Shown: piece after piece, positions 201 through 4,741 of the stretch
How positions within the stretch are numbered: position 1 is the first letter of the stretch
Layout of the letters: each line of letters begins with the position of its first letter
DNA from: a virus
Taxonomy: Duplodnaviria; Heunggongvirae; Uroviricota; Caudoviricetes
Direction: 5' to 3' (one strand)
Length of the DNA: 15,426 nucleotides
Virus record (IMG/VR): IMGVR_UViG_2651869755_000004
Position numbers and translations under genes: made by a program
Notes under the pieces: generated by a model
Told to the model about the DNA's origin: nothing
The model's input: only the letters and a program-made list of their open reading frames with translations
Databases searched by the model: none

Positions 201-224
201 AAAAAAGGCGCCATTTCTGGCGCC
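201..224 (-). terminator. Intrinsic terminator-like hairpin between J and lom
   Basis: On the minus strand GGCGCC-AGAAAT-GGCGCC (6-bp GC stem, 6-nt loop) is followed directly by TTTTTTATT, beginning a few nt after the J stop. Confidence 0.55.
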
Positions 225-243
225 CGTATATGGGTTATAAAAT

Positions 244-3200
244 TCAGCTGATACTGATGCCTGCGGTGGCTTTCTTCATCACCACAACCAGCAAATCGCT
301 GATACTTGCTGTGGGATACCAGTTATTCACCAGCCATGCTGACACCGAAAACTCCAGCGTCATGTGGCCGCGACCAGCTGGCATATCAATAACACCACTG
401 TAAATCAGCGTATTATCCAGCGCGGTACGGTTATAAATTTCAGCACCGTTTTTCCGTACTATCAGGCGGCATGACGAATAAATATCGTTATTCTCCCGCT
501 CATGTTTAGCGCCGCTGAATGCCACCGCCGGAATAACAATTTGCCTGTCAAAAGGCTGATCGTCATAAATCCTGACGGTAATGGTCCCTGATGGCCACCG
601 CTCCGGTGCCCGGGAGTCCCGCGGAAAAGCCTTACCCACTGTTTTGACTATATCGCCTTCAATCTGGTTGGCTGACAGTTTCCCCTTAATCTGACAGTTC
701 TCATTAATTGTGACATTGTTGAGCGTCCCGGCGTTCGCATTCACACTGCCACTGATATCTGCATTTTTAGCGGTCAGTTTTCCGTCCGGTGTCAGGGAAA
801 ATGCCGGAGGATTACCGCCGCTGGTAATGGTGGGAGCCGTCAGGCGTTTCAGGAACACGTCGTTCATGAATATCTGATCGCCCTGACCAACAAACATCGG
901 CTTTGTGTTGCCATTCGCAGGATTAATCATCGCAATCCTGTCTGCCGCCAGCAGCACCTGACTCTGCATTCCTGCTGGCGTATTCTCAATACCGGCACCG
1001 ATACCCGCAATATAAAGGCGTCCGTCCTGCATCTGCTGCAGCTTCACAGCCCACATGCTGTTCAGATTATTATTTGTATCAACCTGAACCTTCTGTATCT
1101 GCTGGATTGCCGCACTCTGATTTTCCAGTTTTTTATTGACGGTCTGCGTGATTTCATTGCTGACATCCGTAATGGACGTCCTGATTTCAGCCAGGTCAGG
1201 CGCAAGCTGACCGTTATCAATCTGCGTCCACAACTCCTGAGCCAGATGGGTTTTCCCTATCTCTCCTTTGAAAAAATTCAGATAGCCGGATGCATCATCA
1301 CTCGGCTGGCCAACAGCCTCCACAAATGCCGATTTGCCAACGGTGTTCACACTGCGGATGTAAAAATAATAATCATGGCCCGGTTTGATATTGATACTGG
1401 CAGCTATCCAGTACAGCGCCGAGCCAAGATAGCGGGCTGCGGTTTCAACCTGCCTGATATCCGCAATCCGCTTTTCCGAGAACCAGAACTCAAACTGTAC
1501 CGTCGGGTCATACACCGCAAGACGCGGGACCGCCGTTATCTGAAAATAGCCCGGCGTCAGCTCAATCCGCGACGGTGCTGCCGGTGCGGCAATCCGGAAT
1601 GTGGTGGTGGCAGGTTCACCCTGCTGGCCATAGCTGTTTATCGCCCGCACCGTCAGGGTGTATTCCCCGAGCGGCAGGCCGCTGAAACGGTGCTCCGTGT
1701 CTGCGGTGATGGCGGTGGTCACCAGTCTGGCATCCGTTCCCTTACCACTGGTCAGGCGCAGACTGAAGCGCACACCCTTCACCACCCGCGGCGTGTCCCA
1801 TTTCGCCTGCGCCAGATACTGACCGTCAGCTGCGCTCACCTCCACCGTCAGGTGCTGCACTGCCGGTGGGATGACGCTGTTCAGGGAACCTGACTGCGGC
1901 TCAAAGCGGGCACCGTTATCCACGATGGCTTCTTTTTCCGGTACGTGCTGCACCGCCGTGATGGCAAAGGTGCCGTCCGTGTTTTCCCGGACGGAGACAC
2001 AGCGGAACAGGCGACGGCGCAGTGACGGCAGGGAGAGTCCCCACACCCCGTATGTCTCCACACCATCAGGCAGGGTACTGACCTGTATCCGGTCCGGCGC
2101 GGGGTGTGCGGTGATGTCCACACTCACCGGCTTACCGCTGCCGTTAATCAGGTTCACCGTGGCGGCACCGGTCTCCGGAAGTGTCACTTCACGGTCCAGC
2201 GTCAGGGTGCGGGTGGCAGCATCAATGGACAGGACACGTCCGCCGGTCAGGGTCCCGGCATAGTCGTTATCACAGATTTCAATGATGTCACCGGGTGTGT
2301 GCCGCAGCCCCTGAGACCCGAGCGTGAAATCCACCGTCTGCGTTTCCAGCAGTTCGGTCTTTATCACCCACAGTCCGGCACGGTGGGCCTGACCGCGGCT
2401 GGTACAGCCGAACGCGTCCATCTTCAGCAGGTTGCGTCCGTAGCGCAGTATGGCTTCCGGGTCTTCCACCAGTTCCGTGGAGGTCTGCCAGCCGTTCTGC
2501 GGGTCGGTGTAATTCACCTCCACCGCCGTGTGCCGGTCCTTCAGGGCACTGAAGCTGTAGCGGAACCCCACGCCGTTATCATCCACCACCACATCGCTGT
2601 TGGTGTACGGCCACACCACATCCGACGGACGGTCCTGAACGAACGTCAGCGTCTGGCCGTTCCATACCGGCATACAGCGCATCGCCGAGCAGAAATCACT
2701 GAGAACGTCCCACGCCTTACGCTGTTGTGCCAGGTACGCATTAAAGGTCATCCGCGGCTCGGTCCCCCCGAAACCATCCGGGACCGTCTGGTCGCAGTAC
2801 TGCCCGATGGCATACAGCGCCCACTTGTCCACATCCGCCGCCCCCAGACGTTTTCCCATGCCGTAGCGCGGGTGAGTCAGCATGTCCCACAGACACCAGG
2901 CCGGGTTGTTGCTGTATGCCGGTTTCAGGCTGCCGTCCCAGATACCACTGTACGTGCGTTTTTCCGGGTCATAGTTTGACGGCACCTGGATGATGCGACC
3001 GCGGATATGGTAGTTCACCGTCATCTGCTGGCCGCCGAACTGCTCCGCATCCACCTGCAGCCCCACAATGGCCGTGTTCGGGTAGCACTGTTTCACATCG
3101 ATGATTTCGGTGTATGACGACCACAGCGTCTTATTCTGCAGCTGGTCCGTGGTGCTGTCCGCCGTCTCCCTGACCATCCGGATGTTAAAGGGCCGGGGAG

Positions 3201-3717
3201 GCAGATTATCCAGAATCACCGAGGCCAGGAACTGCGAGGTGGTCTTGCCGTTAATGGTGACGTCCTTTTCTGTCACCCAGTTACCGTTACGCTGTAACTG
3301 AATCAGCAGGCGGACGGATGCCGGGTTACGGTCACCCTTTGAGGTGGTCTCCACCAGTGACTGCACCCCGAAGGTAACCCGCAGGCGGTCAATGTTCGCG
3401 GACGTAATGGTGCGCGTCACCGGTTTTGCCTTCGTCACTTCCACGCCCAGTCCGGTTTCAGCTCCGGAGGACTCAAAGCCTTCCGGTGGTGTCTGCTCCT
3501 GCTCCCCGGCACGCCAGACCGCGGTCACACCGTGTATCACGGGATTACCGTCCGTGTCCGTCAGCGGGGTTTTGTTCACCAGGATACTCTGCAGTCCCTT
3601 CACCGGGCCTTCTATCGGTCCCTCACCAATCGCATCAATCACACTCATCATCTGCGTGGATTTGAGATTATCCTTCGCCTCACGAGGCGTGTGTGCCTTA
3701 CCGCCACCTTTTCCCAT
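244..3717 (-). CDS. J: Tail tip / host specificity protein J (central tail fibre), 1157 aa
   Basis: ORF begins [22 protein letters not shown] and ends ...ATAGISIS, recognisably lambda gpJ along its whole length (lambda J is 1132 aa). GGGGAAGG ribosome-binding site lies about 5 nt upstream of the ATG at 3717. Confidence 0.97.
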
Positions 3718-3820
3718 ACAGCCTTCCCCTGAATAAATTAACCGCCACTTGCCATTCCGTACAGAAGTCGGATATCCTTCGCCCGAAAAGCATGAAACAC
3801 ATTTCTGCCATGCTAAAGAG

Positions 3821-3856
3821 AAACCCCGGTATCAGCAGATACCGGGGTTTTCTTTC
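3821..3856 (+). terminator. Intrinsic terminator-like hairpin in the I-J insert, possibly bidirectional
   Basis: Plus strand AAACCCCGGTATC-AGCA-GATACCGGGGTTT forms a 10-13 bp GC-rich stem with a 4-nt loop, followed by TTTTCTTTC. The minus-strand reading is followed by a weaker U-rich tract (TTTCTCTTT). Confidence 0.45.
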
Positions 3857-3922
3857 ATGCCCACCGATAATCCTGTTGGTTAAAACCGGTAATGGCATAA
3901 AAATTCTGAATATCTTCACATT

Positions 3923-3950
3923 TTCACAAACTGACTGTGGCGCGTATAAT
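3923..3950 (+). promoter_or_regulatory. Candidate sigma70 promoter on the strand opposite the tail genes
   Basis: -35 TTCACA (3923..3928), 16-bp spacer, perfect -10 TATAAT (3945..3950). An A/T-rich stretch lies upstream (3893..3913). Predicted transcription start near 3957. Confidence 0.4.
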
Positions 3951-3956
3951 TTCTCT

Positions 3957-4053
3957 GCGTTAATTTTTTTGTCGTGATATAAGAATAATTCCTTACACTT
4001 AATCTTCGTAACTCTCCCGCAGTTCCTGTCCGCGATCACTGCGGGATTTTTTT
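3957..4053 (+). ncRNA. Candidate small RNA of about 95 nt defined by the promoter and the downstream terminator; function unknown
   Basis: The interval between the predicted start and the terminator U-tract has no ORF with a ribosome-binding site on either strand. It is AT-rich and ends in a GC stem plus U7, the usual architecture of enterobacterial Hfq-type sRNAs. Prediction only. Confidence 0.3.
4016..4053 (+). terminator. Rho-independent terminator, plus-strand specific
   Basis: CCCGCAGT (4016..4023) pairs with ACTGCGGG (4038..4045), then A plus seven T (4046..4053). The minus-strand reading has no T-tract, so it is directional. It ends 8 bp before the I stop codon. Confidence 0.6.
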
Positions 4054-4060
4054 ATTCTTT

Positions 4061-4741
4061 TTACCCCTGCCGCCCGATAACCACGACCTTTCCGCCCCCG
4101 CCTTCATCACGGGTGCTGATGTCCTGGGATATACGGCGGGAGCCAACCAGCATTTCCCCGTAAGGCACCGGCATCGGGTTCCCCTGGGCAATCATGTTAT
4201 CCAGTGAGGAAAAGTACGTGTTCTGTCTGCCGTTATCCGTTGCGCGGTAATCCGGTGTTTTTGCCTTCGGGGCCAGCATCTGGGCCACACCGCCCAGAAT
4301 CATGCTGGCTCCAAGTGAAAACAGCATCGTGGTGGCAGAAAAACCACCGGCTGCCAGGGCTGAACCCCATAACGCCATTGATGCCCCGGCAGTGAAGAAA
4401 GAGCCCACGATGGCTGCCGCCCCCAGCACAATCTGCAGTCCACCCTTTCCGGCCCCGGCCAGTCGCGGCACAATGTGGATGACCGTTCCCTCACCCAGCT
4501 GTTCGTGAAGACGGGCGTACACCGCCTCCGGTGCCGTGTCATAACCGGCAATACGTATCTGGTACCAGCCTTCGTTCATCTGACGGCGAAAGCCCGGCAT
4601 CTGCATCGACAGGGCGCGAATGGCTTCCGCTGCCGTGTTCACATACAGGCTGAGGCGGCGGCCAAATCGTTGTAAATCCCCGTGAAGGCAGATGCGTGCC
4701 AGTGGCGGTGACGCCAGACTGAATGCGTTCGTCGTTGCCAT
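4061..4741 (-). CDS. I: Tail tip assembly protein I
   Basis: 226-aa ORF MATTNAFSLASPPLARICLHGDLQRFGRR...KVVVIGRQG matches lambda gpI from memory, including the Gly/Ala-rich hydrophobic central segment. Correct position between K and J. Confidence 0.95.
   Translation of the reverse strand: MATTNAFSLASPPLARICLHGDLQRFGRRLSLYVNTAAEAIRALSMQMPGFRRQMNEGWYQIRIAGYDTAPEAVYARLHEQLGEGTVIHIVPRLAGAGKGGLQIVLGAAAIVGSFFTAGASMALWGSALAAGGFSATTMLFSLGASMILGGVAQMLAPKAKTPDYRATDNGRQNTYFSSLDNMIAQGNPMPVPYGEMLVGSRRISQDISTRDEGGGGKVVVIGRQG

What the first reader, a model, noticed from the sequence alone, without database searches (positions are those of the whole stretch)
3915..4053. Promoter-to-terminator unit on the strand opposite the tail operon: candidate prophage small RNA
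A near-consensus sigma70 promoter (TTCACA, 16 bp, TATAAT) with an upstream A/T tract is followed about 100 bp later by a strong directional intrinsic terminator (8-bp GC stem plus A and seven T). Nothing credibly coding lies between them. The 3' stem-loop with a U-tail is the usual architecture of Hfq-binding sRNAs. Transcription runs against the late operon, so it would not depend on late antitermination and could be made in the lysogen. Prophage sRNAs and sRNA sponges that rewire host regulation are known in pathogenic E. coli, but I cannot tell from sequence whether this is a described member or a new one.
Basis: partly seen in the sequence, partly recalled or inferred. Interest (0 to 1): 0.72.

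Follow-up and report, generated by a model that had tools for sequence, protein, structure and literature searches.

The report
Divergent allele of prophage sRNA PasB
The promoter-to-terminator unit is real, but it is a variant of a prophage small RNA already described in pathogenic E. coli (PasB in EPEC, very probably EcOnc22-24 in EHEC), so it extends a known family rather than revealing a new kind of element.

Summary
A TTCACA-16-TATAAT promoter (3923-3950) is followed by a roughly 97-nt non-coding stretch. That stretch ends in a one-directional intrinsic terminator (stem 4015-4023/4038-4046, U7 4047-4053). The unit sits in the spacer between tail genes I and J, on the opposite strand. None of 300 shuffles reproduced such a unit.

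It is not new in kind. PasB of EPEC E2348/69 was validated by Northern blot, is Hfq-dependent, and has 37 RIL-seq partners. It occupies the same spacer and strand, with a near-identical promoter and the same terminator. Its Northern probe matches 4029-4048. A covariance model built only from other alleles hits 3957-4053 at 62.8 bits (E 5e-11). EcOnc22/23/24 of EHEC Sakai (about 85 nt, Hfq-dependent) map to the same spacer.

This allele is 72-74% identical to PasB, and the differences lie mainly in the body. It would escape the published 2026 PasB survey. It is identical in CFT073, ATCC 25922 and about 630 complete E. coli records.

The most likely function is an Hfq-dependent base-pairing sRNA made in the lysogen. 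Its targets are unknown. Interest is low to moderate.

The parts
3897..3914 (+). A/T-rich tract upstream of the -35 (UP-element-like)
   Evidence: Read directly from the sequence. Mean conservation over 3897-3922 is 0.94 across 55 unique alleles.
3923..3928 (+). -35 hexamer TTCACA
   Evidence: Present in 64 of 80 I-anchored loci. Identical in E2348/69 PasB.
3945..3950 (+). -10 hexamer TATAAT, 16-nt spacer from the -35
   Evidence: Variants seen elsewhere are only AATAAT and GATAAT, which keep A2 and T6.
3957..4053 (+). Predicted sRNA transcript (97 nt), PasB-family allele. If its 5' end corresponds to the coverage-based 5' end annotated for E2348/69 PasB, it would start near 3972 and be about 82 nt.
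   Evidence: Covariance model R1, built without window-type alleles, matches 3957-4053 end to end at 62.8 bits, E 5e-11.
3957..3971 (+). Conserved 5' segment GCGUUAAUUUUUUUG (U-rich)
   Evidence: Mean conservation 0.94 across alleles. It forms the 5' arm of the weak consensus 5' hairpin.
3981..3989 (+). (A-R-N)x3 run AAGAAUAAU, candidate contact for the distal face of Hfq
   Evidence: All 34 alleles tested have an (ARN)3-7 run around this position. In 30 of them the run ends directly before a UCC/UCU motif (UCCUU in most). Runs of five or more were matched by 0% of shuffles, runs of four by 0-1%, and runs of three by 2-8%.
3990..4008 (+). Candidate single-stranded seed region containing UCCUU (3990-3994) and the invariant AUCUU (4002-4006)
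   Evidence: Per-column conservation. Unpaired in the RNAalifold consensus. Zhu et al. also place the proposed PasB seed just upstream of the terminator.
4015..4046 (+). Terminator hairpin: stem 4015-4023 with 4038-4046, 14-nt loop. The loop contains a second, alternative left arm, UCCGCG, at 4029-4034.
   Evidence: The left arm is 95-100% conserved across alleles; the right arm was the search anchor, so its conservation is by construction. The PasB Northern probe is complementary to 4029-4048.
4047..4053 (+). U7 tail (transcript 3' end; binding site for the proximal face of Hfq)
   Evidence: Read from the sequence. The annotated 3' end of PasB falls at the last U of the homologous tract.
4061..4741 (-). 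Tail assembly gene I. RefSeq annotates 4061-4642 in an identical region. Its stop codon is 8 nt from the sRNA 3' end.
244..3717 (-). Tail tip / host specificity gene J. Its start codon lies 240 nt from the predicted sRNA 5' end.

Best explanation
This is a PasB-family small RNA gene. It is a self-contained insert, with its own sigma-70 promoter and its own intrinsic terminator, in the spacer between tail genes I and J of a lambdoid E. coli prophage. It is transcribed against the late operon.

Host RNA polymerase would make an RNA of about 82-97 nt in the lysogen, independently of late antitermination. Hfq would bind and stabilise it through the terminator hairpin plus U7 tail, and probably through an (ARN)3 run. 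The RNA would then pair with mRNAs in trans through the single-stranded stretch around 3990-4008 (UCCUU...AUCUU).

Shown here: the anatomy, the homology, the position and the conservation. Shown by others for other alleles: expression, dependence on Hfq, and many Hfq-mediated RNA partners. Inferred: that this allele behaves the same way, which residues form the seed, and that its diverged body gives it a partly different set of targets.
For: Position. The unit is in the same place and orientation as PasB of E2348/69 (NC_011601.1, minus strand, 1466343..1466261, between I and J).

Sequence. The promoter region and terminator are nearly identical to the PasB locus. The PasB Northern probe matches 4029-4048 exactly, with 3 mismatches at its 5' edge. 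A covariance model built from PasB-type and Sakai-type alleles only finds 3957-4053 (+) at 62.8 bits, E 5e-11, with nothing else in the window below E 0.5.

Family experiments. PasB was confirmed by Northern blot and its stability depends on Hfq. Its log2 fold change in the wild-type versus delta-hfq comparison is -6.8 and -2.4 in the two growth conditions. In RIL-seq it has 37 partners, 30 of them in CDS or 5'UTR regions, and it is the second RNA in 99-100% of chimeras. EcOnc22/23/24 of EHEC Sakai (Hfq-CRAC peaks; Northern of about 85 nt; destabilised in delta-hfq) fall on the homologous RNA in the I-J spacers of Sp15 and Sp14, once the coordinate shift between genome versions is applied.

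Selection. The promoter, the 5' end, the ARN run, the UCCUU and AUCUU motifs and the terminator are kept across 55 alleles, while the rest of the body is mosaic. The module is present in 80 of 80 I-anchored phage loci and in 1847 of 5426 complete E. coli genomes.
Against: - There are no expression or Hfq data for this allele or its hosts in the literature I could search.
- The transcript is only 72-74% identical to PasB, and the differences include the proposed seed.
- The terminator stem does not vary, so there is no covariation support for it. The 5' hairpin of this allele is weak (whole-RNA z = -2.1). The three compensatory pairs in the consensus come from essentially one contrast between two haplotypes.
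- No PasB target has been validated by mutation, and no common target motif was reported for PasB.
- The annotated PasB 5' end (83 nt) lies about 15 nt downstream of the +1 predicted from the promoter.
- About 6 of 78 complete I-anchored loci have the promoter replaced by unrelated sequence, so the gene is dispensable for the phage.
Confidence: 0.85

Rival explanations
1. The RNA acts mainly in cis as an antisense RNA. It is fully complementary to the late tail-operon transcript between I and J. Its main role would then be to pair with that mRNA, causing RNase III cleavage or changing J expression. Alternatively, the abundant late mRNA would titrate the sRNA away after induction. Trans targets would be secondary.
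For: The gene always sits on the strand opposite I and J, 8 nt from the I stop codon. It stays at this junction in every locus examined. Perfect complementarity to the late mRNA follows from the geometry.
Against: The sRNA ends 240 nt from the J start codon here, and about 140 nt away in E2348/69, so it does not cover J's ribosome-binding site. E2348/69 PasB has 37 trans partners on Hfq, 30 of them in CDS or 5'UTR regions, mostly from the core genome. The conserved ARN run and U-tail are features of trans-acting Hfq sRNAs. The two roles are not mutually exclusive.
Confidence: 0.15
2. The RNA is a sponge (anti-sRNA) like AgvB and AsxR. It would act mainly by pairing with and inactivating a core-genome Hfq sRNA.
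For: Prophage anti-sRNAs exist in EHEC. One RIL-seq chimera type links PasB to an RNA from the intergenic region next to pasA.
Against: The RIL-seq summary lists 0 sRNA partners among the 37 PasB partners. There is no match to Rfam AgvB or AsxR. The location differs (I-J spacer rather than the PR' insertion site) and so does the length (82-97 nt rather than 51-60 nt).
Confidence: 0.07
3. The unit is an inactive relic or a mere transcriptional insulator. The promoter and terminator would be leftovers that produce no functional RNA in this host.
For: Some relatives have lost the unit's integrity. One has an IS element inserted between the -35 and -10 (L033), and six have the promoter replaced. 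PasB lies inside prophages that are often defective.
Against: This allele has the full 11/12 promoter and an intact terminator. It is identical in about 630 complete E. coli records. The promoter and RNA motifs are better conserved than the neighbouring spacer sequence. Other alleles are abundantly expressed.
Confidence: 0.05
4. The unit is a small-protein gene or a type I toxin-antitoxin pair.
For: The ORF list contains a 113-aa ORF (3698..4039, minus strand) and a 94-aa ORF (3693..3977, plus strand) across the spacer. One phage record annotates a hypothetical protein there.
Against: The transcript has no ATG and no ORF longer than 2 codons from any start codon. Alleles differ by indels that are not multiples of three, both in the sRNA body and in the J-proximal spacer: 1-nt deletions and a 46-nt deletion. 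The short spacer class lacks about 100 nt of the supposed ORFs.
Confidence: 0.01

Closest known systems
PasB (pathogenicity-associated sRNA B) of EPEC O127:H6 E2348/69, prophage PP6 (Pearl Mizrahi et al. 2021, PMC8550237; Zhu, Shabalina & Storz 2026, doi 10.64898/2026.05.13.724894)
   Same: - Same I-J spacer and same strand relative to the tail genes.
- Near-identical promoter.
- Same 5' start, GCGUUA.
- An ARN run followed by UCCUU, and the AUCUU motif.
- Identical right terminator arm and U7 tail.
- Homology confirmed by the covariance model.
   Different: - 72-74% identity over the transcript, with most substitutions and indels between 3972 and 4030, including the proposed seed.
- (ARN)3 here against (ARN)5 in PasB.
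- A 5-nt insertion in the terminator loop.
- The longest exact run shared with the 83-nt PasB query is 25 nt. The 2026 survey used word size 28 and query coverage above 75%, so it would not have retrieved this allele.
- The J-proximal half of the spacer is about 100 nt longer and unrelated in sequence.
- Hosts of the identical allele include ExPEC-type strains such as CFT073 and CE10, rather than EPEC.
EcOnc22 / EcOnc23 / EcOnc24 of EHEC O157:H7 Sakai, prophages Sp15, Sp14 and Sp11 (Tree et al. 2014, PMC4104026, Table S2)
   Same: These are Hfq-CRAC peaks on the strand opposite the tail genes in the 240-nt I-J spacers. The Northern band is about 85 nt and is destabilised in delta-hfq. The Sakai spacer carries a homologous promoter, body and terminator.
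   Different: The identification rests on converting NC_002695.1 coordinates to NC_002695.2. I estimated the shift at about 120-146 nt from two anchors: AgvB located by Rfam, and the EcOnc42 homologue located by BLAST. The equivalence is therefore very likely but not proven. The Sakai allele is about 74% identical to the window RNA and has a weaker -35 and an AATAAT -10. No published source I found links EcOnc22 to PasB.
AgvB / AsxR anti-sRNAs (EcOnc01/02; Rfam RF02702, RF02703)
   Same: Prophage-encoded, Hfq-bound short RNAs. Each has its own promoter and terminator and is inserted in a lambdoid prophage. Their expression and Hfq modules are conserved while the pairing region varies.
   Different: They sit at the insertion site downstream of PR', not in the tail operon. 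They are 51-60 nt long. They act as sponges of GcvB and FnrS. There is no Rfam match here, and PasB has no sRNA partners in RIL-seq.
PasA / PasC / PasD and STnc100 (other prophage sRNAs of EPEC and EHEC)
   Same: Hfq-dependent prophage sRNAs found in the same studies.
   Different: They lie near the lysis genes, the sialate esterase gene and Q, not in the structural operon. They have no sequence relation to this RNA. PasB is distributed independently of them.

Membership tests
PasB sRNA family | Encoded in the spacer between tail assembly gene I and tail tip gene J of a lambdoid prophage, on the strand opposite those genes | tested here: met
   Window: I at 4061-4741 (-), J at 244-3717 (-), unit at 3923-4053 (+). 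E2348/69: I ends at 1466255, J starts at 1466496, and PasB is at 1466343..1466261 on the other strand.
PasB sRNA family | Sequence and structure homology of the transcript to PasB | tested here: met
   Model R1 was built from 13 alleles that exclude the window type. It matches 3957-4053 (+) over its full length at 62.8 bits, E 5e-11. Pairwise identity is 72-74%. Mosaic intermediate alleles connect the two types.
PasB sRNA family | Own sigma-70 promoter homologous to that upstream of PasB | tested here: met
   Window 3897-3960 aligns almost without change to the E2348/69 locus, including TTCACA and TATAAT.
PasB sRNA family | Rho-independent terminator with a U7 tract forming the 3' end | tested here: met
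   TCCGCGATCACTGCGGGATTTTTTT is identical in both. RIL-seq records a longest U tract of 7 for PasB.
PasB sRNA family | Stable transcript of about 83 nt whose abundance depends on Hfq | not testable with these tools
   Shown for E2348/69 by Northern blot and by RNA-seq of a delta-hfq strain, and for EcOnc22 in Sakai. No data were found for this allele.
PasB sRNA family | Hfq-mediated pairing with many mRNAs, as the second RNA in RIL-seq chimeras | not testable with these tools
   E2348/69 PasB has 37 partners and is the second RNA in 99-100% of chimeras. There is no interactome for a carrier of this allele.
PasB as delimited operationally in the 2026 survey (blastn word size 28, query coverage >75%). 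This is a search threshold, not a biological definition. | An exact 28-nt word shared with the 83-nt E2348/69 PasB query | tested here: not met
   The longest shared exact run is 25 nt. The survey thresholds are given. The consequence is that this allele class is probably missing from the published distribution.
AgvB/AsxR anti-sRNAs | Match to Rfam RF02702 or RF02703; 51-60 nt; located downstream of PR' | tested here: not met
   No Rfam hit at the gathering threshold or at E<=10. The same tool did find AgvB in Sakai. Location and length also differ.
Hfq class II-like sRNA architecture (ARN run plus terminator U-tail) | An (A-R-N)n run of three or more repeats in an unpaired region, plus a 3' hairpin with a U-tail | tested here: met
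   AAGAAUAAU lies at 3981-3989. All 34 alleles have an (ARN)3-7 run around the same position. Actual binding to the distal face of Hfq cannot be tested here.
Type I toxin-antitoxin or small-protein gene | A conserved short ORF | tested here: not met
   No ATG and no ORF longer than 2 codons. Alleles carry frame-breaking indels.

The most novel reading that the evidence does not exclude
The I-J spacer sRNA may be a diversifying cassette. The promoter, 5' end, Hfq-binding modules and terminator would be held constant. The roughly 45-nt pairing body would be reshuffled by recombination among co-resident lambdoid prophages. Each allele class (E2348/69 PasB, Sakai EcOnc22, and this CFT073-type allele) would then control a different host regulon. 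On this reading the CFT073-type allele is an unrecognised, ExPEC-associated regulator that published PasB surveys have missed. It may also pair in cis with the late I-J mRNA on induction.
Probability: 0.3. Interest if true: 0.5.

Novelty: new member of a known kind. Interest (0 to 1): 0.27.

Why it matters
It settles the finding. The unit is real and its kind is already known, so it needs no new mechanism.

The useful additions are modest:
- The PasB family is wider and more variable than the 2026 survey's thresholds allow. I found matches in 1847 of 5426 complete E. coli genomes. One body type is identical in about 630 records that include CFT073, ATCC 25922 and CE10.
- PasB of EPEC and EcOnc22-24 of EHEC are very probably the same gene family. 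The held literature does not link them.
- Across alleles the expression and Hfq-binding parts stay constant while the pairing region is mosaic. That makes the locus a convenient natural experiment on how sRNA targets change.

Tried and rejected
- **Rfam.** No family matched the window at the gathering threshold, and 3650-4150 gave only sub-threshold chance hits at E<=10. The Sakai I-J spacers also gave nothing. This RNA therefore has no Rfam family.
- **AgvB/AsxR.** My first recollection was that these lie between I and J. That was wrong: they lie at the PR' insertion site.
- **C271 of UPEC UTI89 (Khandige 2015).** I considered it because the allele occurs in ExPEC. Its Northern probe is unrelated to this sequence.
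- **Literature search by sequence and for UPEC interactomes.** Nothing was found for this allele.
- **Local target scan.** I tested the unstructured body against 16 translation-initiation regions of the window. The best was gene L at z = -3.2 (0.8% of background windows). With 16 tests and loose duplexes this is not convincing.
- **Search for the module outside Escherichia.** A gapped pattern over GTDB representative genomes gave 26 hits, but only 5 are real homologues. Two are in E. albertii. Three are on short contigs labelled Streptomyces, Parendozoicomonas and a Clostridiales MAG, which are probably contamination. The remaining 21 are unrelated sequences, probably terminators that fit the pattern by chance.
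- **ORFs across the spacer.** Rejected because of frame-breaking indels.
- **My remembered v1 coordinates for stx1 in Sakai.** These implied a shift of 414 nt and were discarded in favour of the two sequence-based anchors.

Full report
**Setting.** The window is the late structural region of a lambdoid E. coli prophage, with all large genes on the minus strand. A 100% identical stretch in many complete E. coli chromosomes is annotated as tail assembly protein (gene I, window 4061-4642/4741) and tail tip protein J (ending at 3717). The finding lies in the 343-nt spacer between them (3718-4060), on the plus strand.

**Observation.**
- The -35 TTCACA (3923-3928), a 16-nt spacer and the -10 TATAAT (3945-3950) give an 11/12 match. 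This is the best promoter-like site in the window.
- An A/T tract lies upstream at 3897-3914.
- From the predicted +1 (G3957) there are 97 nt to the end of a U7 run (4047-4053).
- The U run follows a 9-bp stem, 4015-4023 with 4038-4046, whose core is CCCGCAG/CUGCGGG. The hairpin has dG -15.7 kcal/mol and z = -4.1.
- The loop holds a second, weaker left arm at 4029-4034, which is the stem the scan tool reported.
- On the other strand no U run follows the hairpin, so termination works in one direction only.
- The transcript has no ATG and no ORF longer than two codons.
- Only 18 of 300 dinucleotide shuffles had any promoter of at least 11/12. None had a promoter-terminator unit.
- One small correction: coordinate 3915 is an upstream repeat of TTCACA, not the hexamer that is correctly spaced from the -10.

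**Identity.** Rfam has no matching family. The literature does.
- Pearl Mizrahi et al. (2021) found five prophage sRNAs in EPEC E2348/69 by Hfq RIL-seq. One of them, PasB, is 83 nt, lies at NC_011601.1 (-) 1466343..1466261 in prophage PP6, and was probed with AATCCCGCAGTGATCGCGGAGCT.
- The reverse complement of that probe matches window 4026-4048. The last 20 nt match exactly, and no shuffle produced a match.
- In E2348/69 the coordinates fall between the tail assembly gene (ending at 1466255) and J (starting at 1466496), on the opposite strand. This is the same arrangement as here.
- Alignment of the two spacers shows the promoter region and the terminator almost unchanged. The RNA body is heavily substituted, and the J-proximal half of the spacer is unrelated.
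- As a formal homology test I built a covariance model from 13 alleles that exclude the window's body type. It matches 3957-4053 (+) from end to end at 62.8 bits, E 5e-11. The next best hit in the window has E 0.59.

**Experimental evidence for the family.**
- PasB was confirmed by Northern blot, with Hfq-dependent stability. It is more abundant in the non-activating growth condition.
- In the wild-type versus delta-hfq RNA-seq comparison its log2 fold change is -6.8 and -2.4 in the two conditions (comparison described).
- RIL-seq lists 37 unique partners: 30 in CDS or 5'UTR, 4 in 3'UTR or intergenic regions, and 0 sRNAs. There are 258 and 1,820 chimeric fragments in the two conditions. PasB is the second RNA in 100% and 98.7% of them, and its longest U tract is 7.
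- No target has been validated, and no common target motif was reported.

**Link to EHEC.** Tree et al. (2014) list three homologous orphan Hfq-CRAC peaks in Sakai prophages: EcOnc22 (Sp15), EcOnc23 (Sp14) and EcOnc24 (Sp11). EcOnc22 gives a Northern band of about 85 nt and is destabilised in delta-hfq.
- Their coordinates refer to NC_002695.1.
- In NC_002695.2 the I-J spacers of Sp15 and Sp14 are 2902691-2902930 and 2676622-2676861. Both hold a PasB-like promoter, body and terminator.
- Two anchors give a v1-to-v2 shift of about 120-146 nt. The Rfam AgvB hit lies at 1941920-1941981, against the v1 peak at 1941783-1941835. The EcOnc42 homologue lies at 2924155-2924336, against the v1 peak starting at 2924036.
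- With any shift in that range, the EcOnc22 peak (v1 2902714-2902774, +) falls on the PasB-like RNA (about 2902836-2902926).
- I therefore regard EcOnc22-24 as PasB-family alleles. This link is absent from the PasB paper's table and from the review listing EcOnc22. It is very likely but depends on the coordinate conversion.

**Variation in the family.**
- An exact-pattern scan of IMG/VR with the promoter gave 120 loci and 31 transcript alleles.
- A second set of 80 loci, chosen only by their I protein, all carry the terminator module. Of these, 64 have TTCACA-16-(T/A/G)ATAAT. Two are cut by contig ends. About six have the promoter replaced by unrelated sequence, with the breakpoint at the predicted +1. 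The rest have weaker variant promoters.
- Across 55 unique alleles, mean conservation is 0.89-0.94 for the upstream tract, the promoter hexamers and the first 15 transcribed nt. It is 0.62-0.80 for the body.
- Within the body, UCC (3990-3992) is 91-98% conserved and AUCUU (4002-4006) is invariant.
- The alleles are mosaics of a few body blocks.
- RNAalifold gives an A/U-rich 5' hairpin, a single-stranded middle and the terminator. The terminator does not vary, so it offers no covariation evidence. The three compensatory pairs in the 5' hairpin reflect essentially one contrast between two haplotypes.
- All 34 alleles examined have an (A-R-N)3-7 run around the same position, and in most it ends directly before UCCUU. 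Here it is AAGAAUAAU at 3981-3989. From established knowledge of Hfq (ARN motifs bind the distal face; the terminator U-tail binds the proximal face), this suggests a class II-like mode of binding. That is an inference.

**This allele.**
- It is 72-74% identical to E2348/69 PasB and to the Sakai Sp15 allele.
- The longest exact run it shares with the 83-nt PasB query is 25 nt. The 2026 distribution study used blastn with word size 28 and query coverage above 75%, so it would not have retrieved this allele.
- Window 3900-4060 is at least 99% identical in 633 complete E. coli records, including CFT073. Window 3700-4100 is 100% identical in ATCC 25922, CE10 and clone D i2, among others. The best match in a further 867 records is 80-90% identical, the band that holds the sampled O157:H7 records at 80.2%. 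In all, 1847 of 5426 genomes have some allele, with up to 9 copies per genome.
- Among GTDB representative genomes, the only convincing non-coli carrier is E. albertii.

**Mechanism.** The best-supported reading is an independently transcribed, Hfq-dependent, trans-pairing sRNA made in the lysogen. Its seed is probably in 3990-4008.
- The 5' end is uncertain. The promoter predicts 3957 (97 nt). The coverage-based PasB annotation corresponds to about 3972 (82 nt).
- Because the gene is antisense to the late transcript, a cis effect on the I-J mRNA after induction is possible and does not exclude the trans role. However, the RNA does not overlap J's ribosome-binding site.
- A sponge role is disfavoured by the absence of sRNA partners in RIL-seq.
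- A coding role is excluded.
- A scan for targets inside the window was not convincing.

**Verdict.** The element belongs to a described family (PasB, and very probably EcOnc22-24). This copy is a diverged allele that I could not find described and that published survey thresholds would miss. I rate it a new member of a known kind, of low to moderate interest.

Noticed in passing
window 3823-3855 (both strands); L002 1925-1950; L203 3243-3266: The J-proximal half of the I-J spacer holds a strong hairpin (13 bp here, dG -27 kcal/mol, z -4.3 to -6.8). On the tail-gene strand it is followed by a U-rich run, like an intrinsic terminator just upstream of J. In this window it also has a U tail on the sRNA strand. 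The short spacer class (E2348/69, Sakai) has an unrelated hairpin at the same place, with a compensatory C-G to T-A change between variants. Three loci have a 46-nt deletion that removes it. Its role is unknown.
   Followed up: partly
L033 (IMG/VR), about 30 nt after the promoter pattern: An IS element, judged from memory of its terminal sequence to be IS629/IS3-family-like, is inserted between the -35 and -10 of the sRNA promoter. This copy is presumably inactivated.
   Followed up: no
L157, L160, L180, L182, L187, L190: In these I-anchored loci the sRNA body and terminator are intact, but everything upstream of the predicted +1 is replaced by unrelated sequence. This marks a recombination breakpoint exactly at the transcription start.
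   Followed up: partly
L203 3337-3427 and L204 about 1268-1358 (Sakai Sp15 and Sp14): EcOnc22 and EcOnc23 of Tree et al. 2014 appear to be the EHEC alleles of PasB. The held literature does not make this connection. The Sakai alleles have AATAAT as the -10 and a degraded second TTCACA.
   Followed up: yes
L220 (Streptomyces flavalbus, 3.4-kb contig), L213 (Parendozoicomonas haliclonae, 460-nt contig), L222 (Clostridiales MAG): Short contigs filed under unrelated taxa carry this E. coli prophage spacer at 72-94% identity. They are probably contamination or mis-binning in those assemblies.
   Followed up: partly
window 206-225 (-): A strong intrinsic terminator (8-bp stem with 6 GC pairs, followed by TTTTTATT) lies immediately after the J stop codon at 244.
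   Followed up: no
L205 1338-1547 (-) and L207 428-620 (+): Rfam STnc100 hits lie directly beside the EcOnc42 homologue and AgvB in Sakai Sp15 and Sp10. This agrees with the preprint's remark that STnc100 marks the PR'-proximal sRNA region.
   Followed up: no
window 244-3717 versus L001 2326-6018: The J reading frame in the window is 1157 aa, while RefSeq annotates 1230 aa in strain SK1144, whose I-J spacer is identical. The distal end of J therefore differs between carriers of the same sRNA allele, which points to a mosaic host-range module.
   Followed up: no
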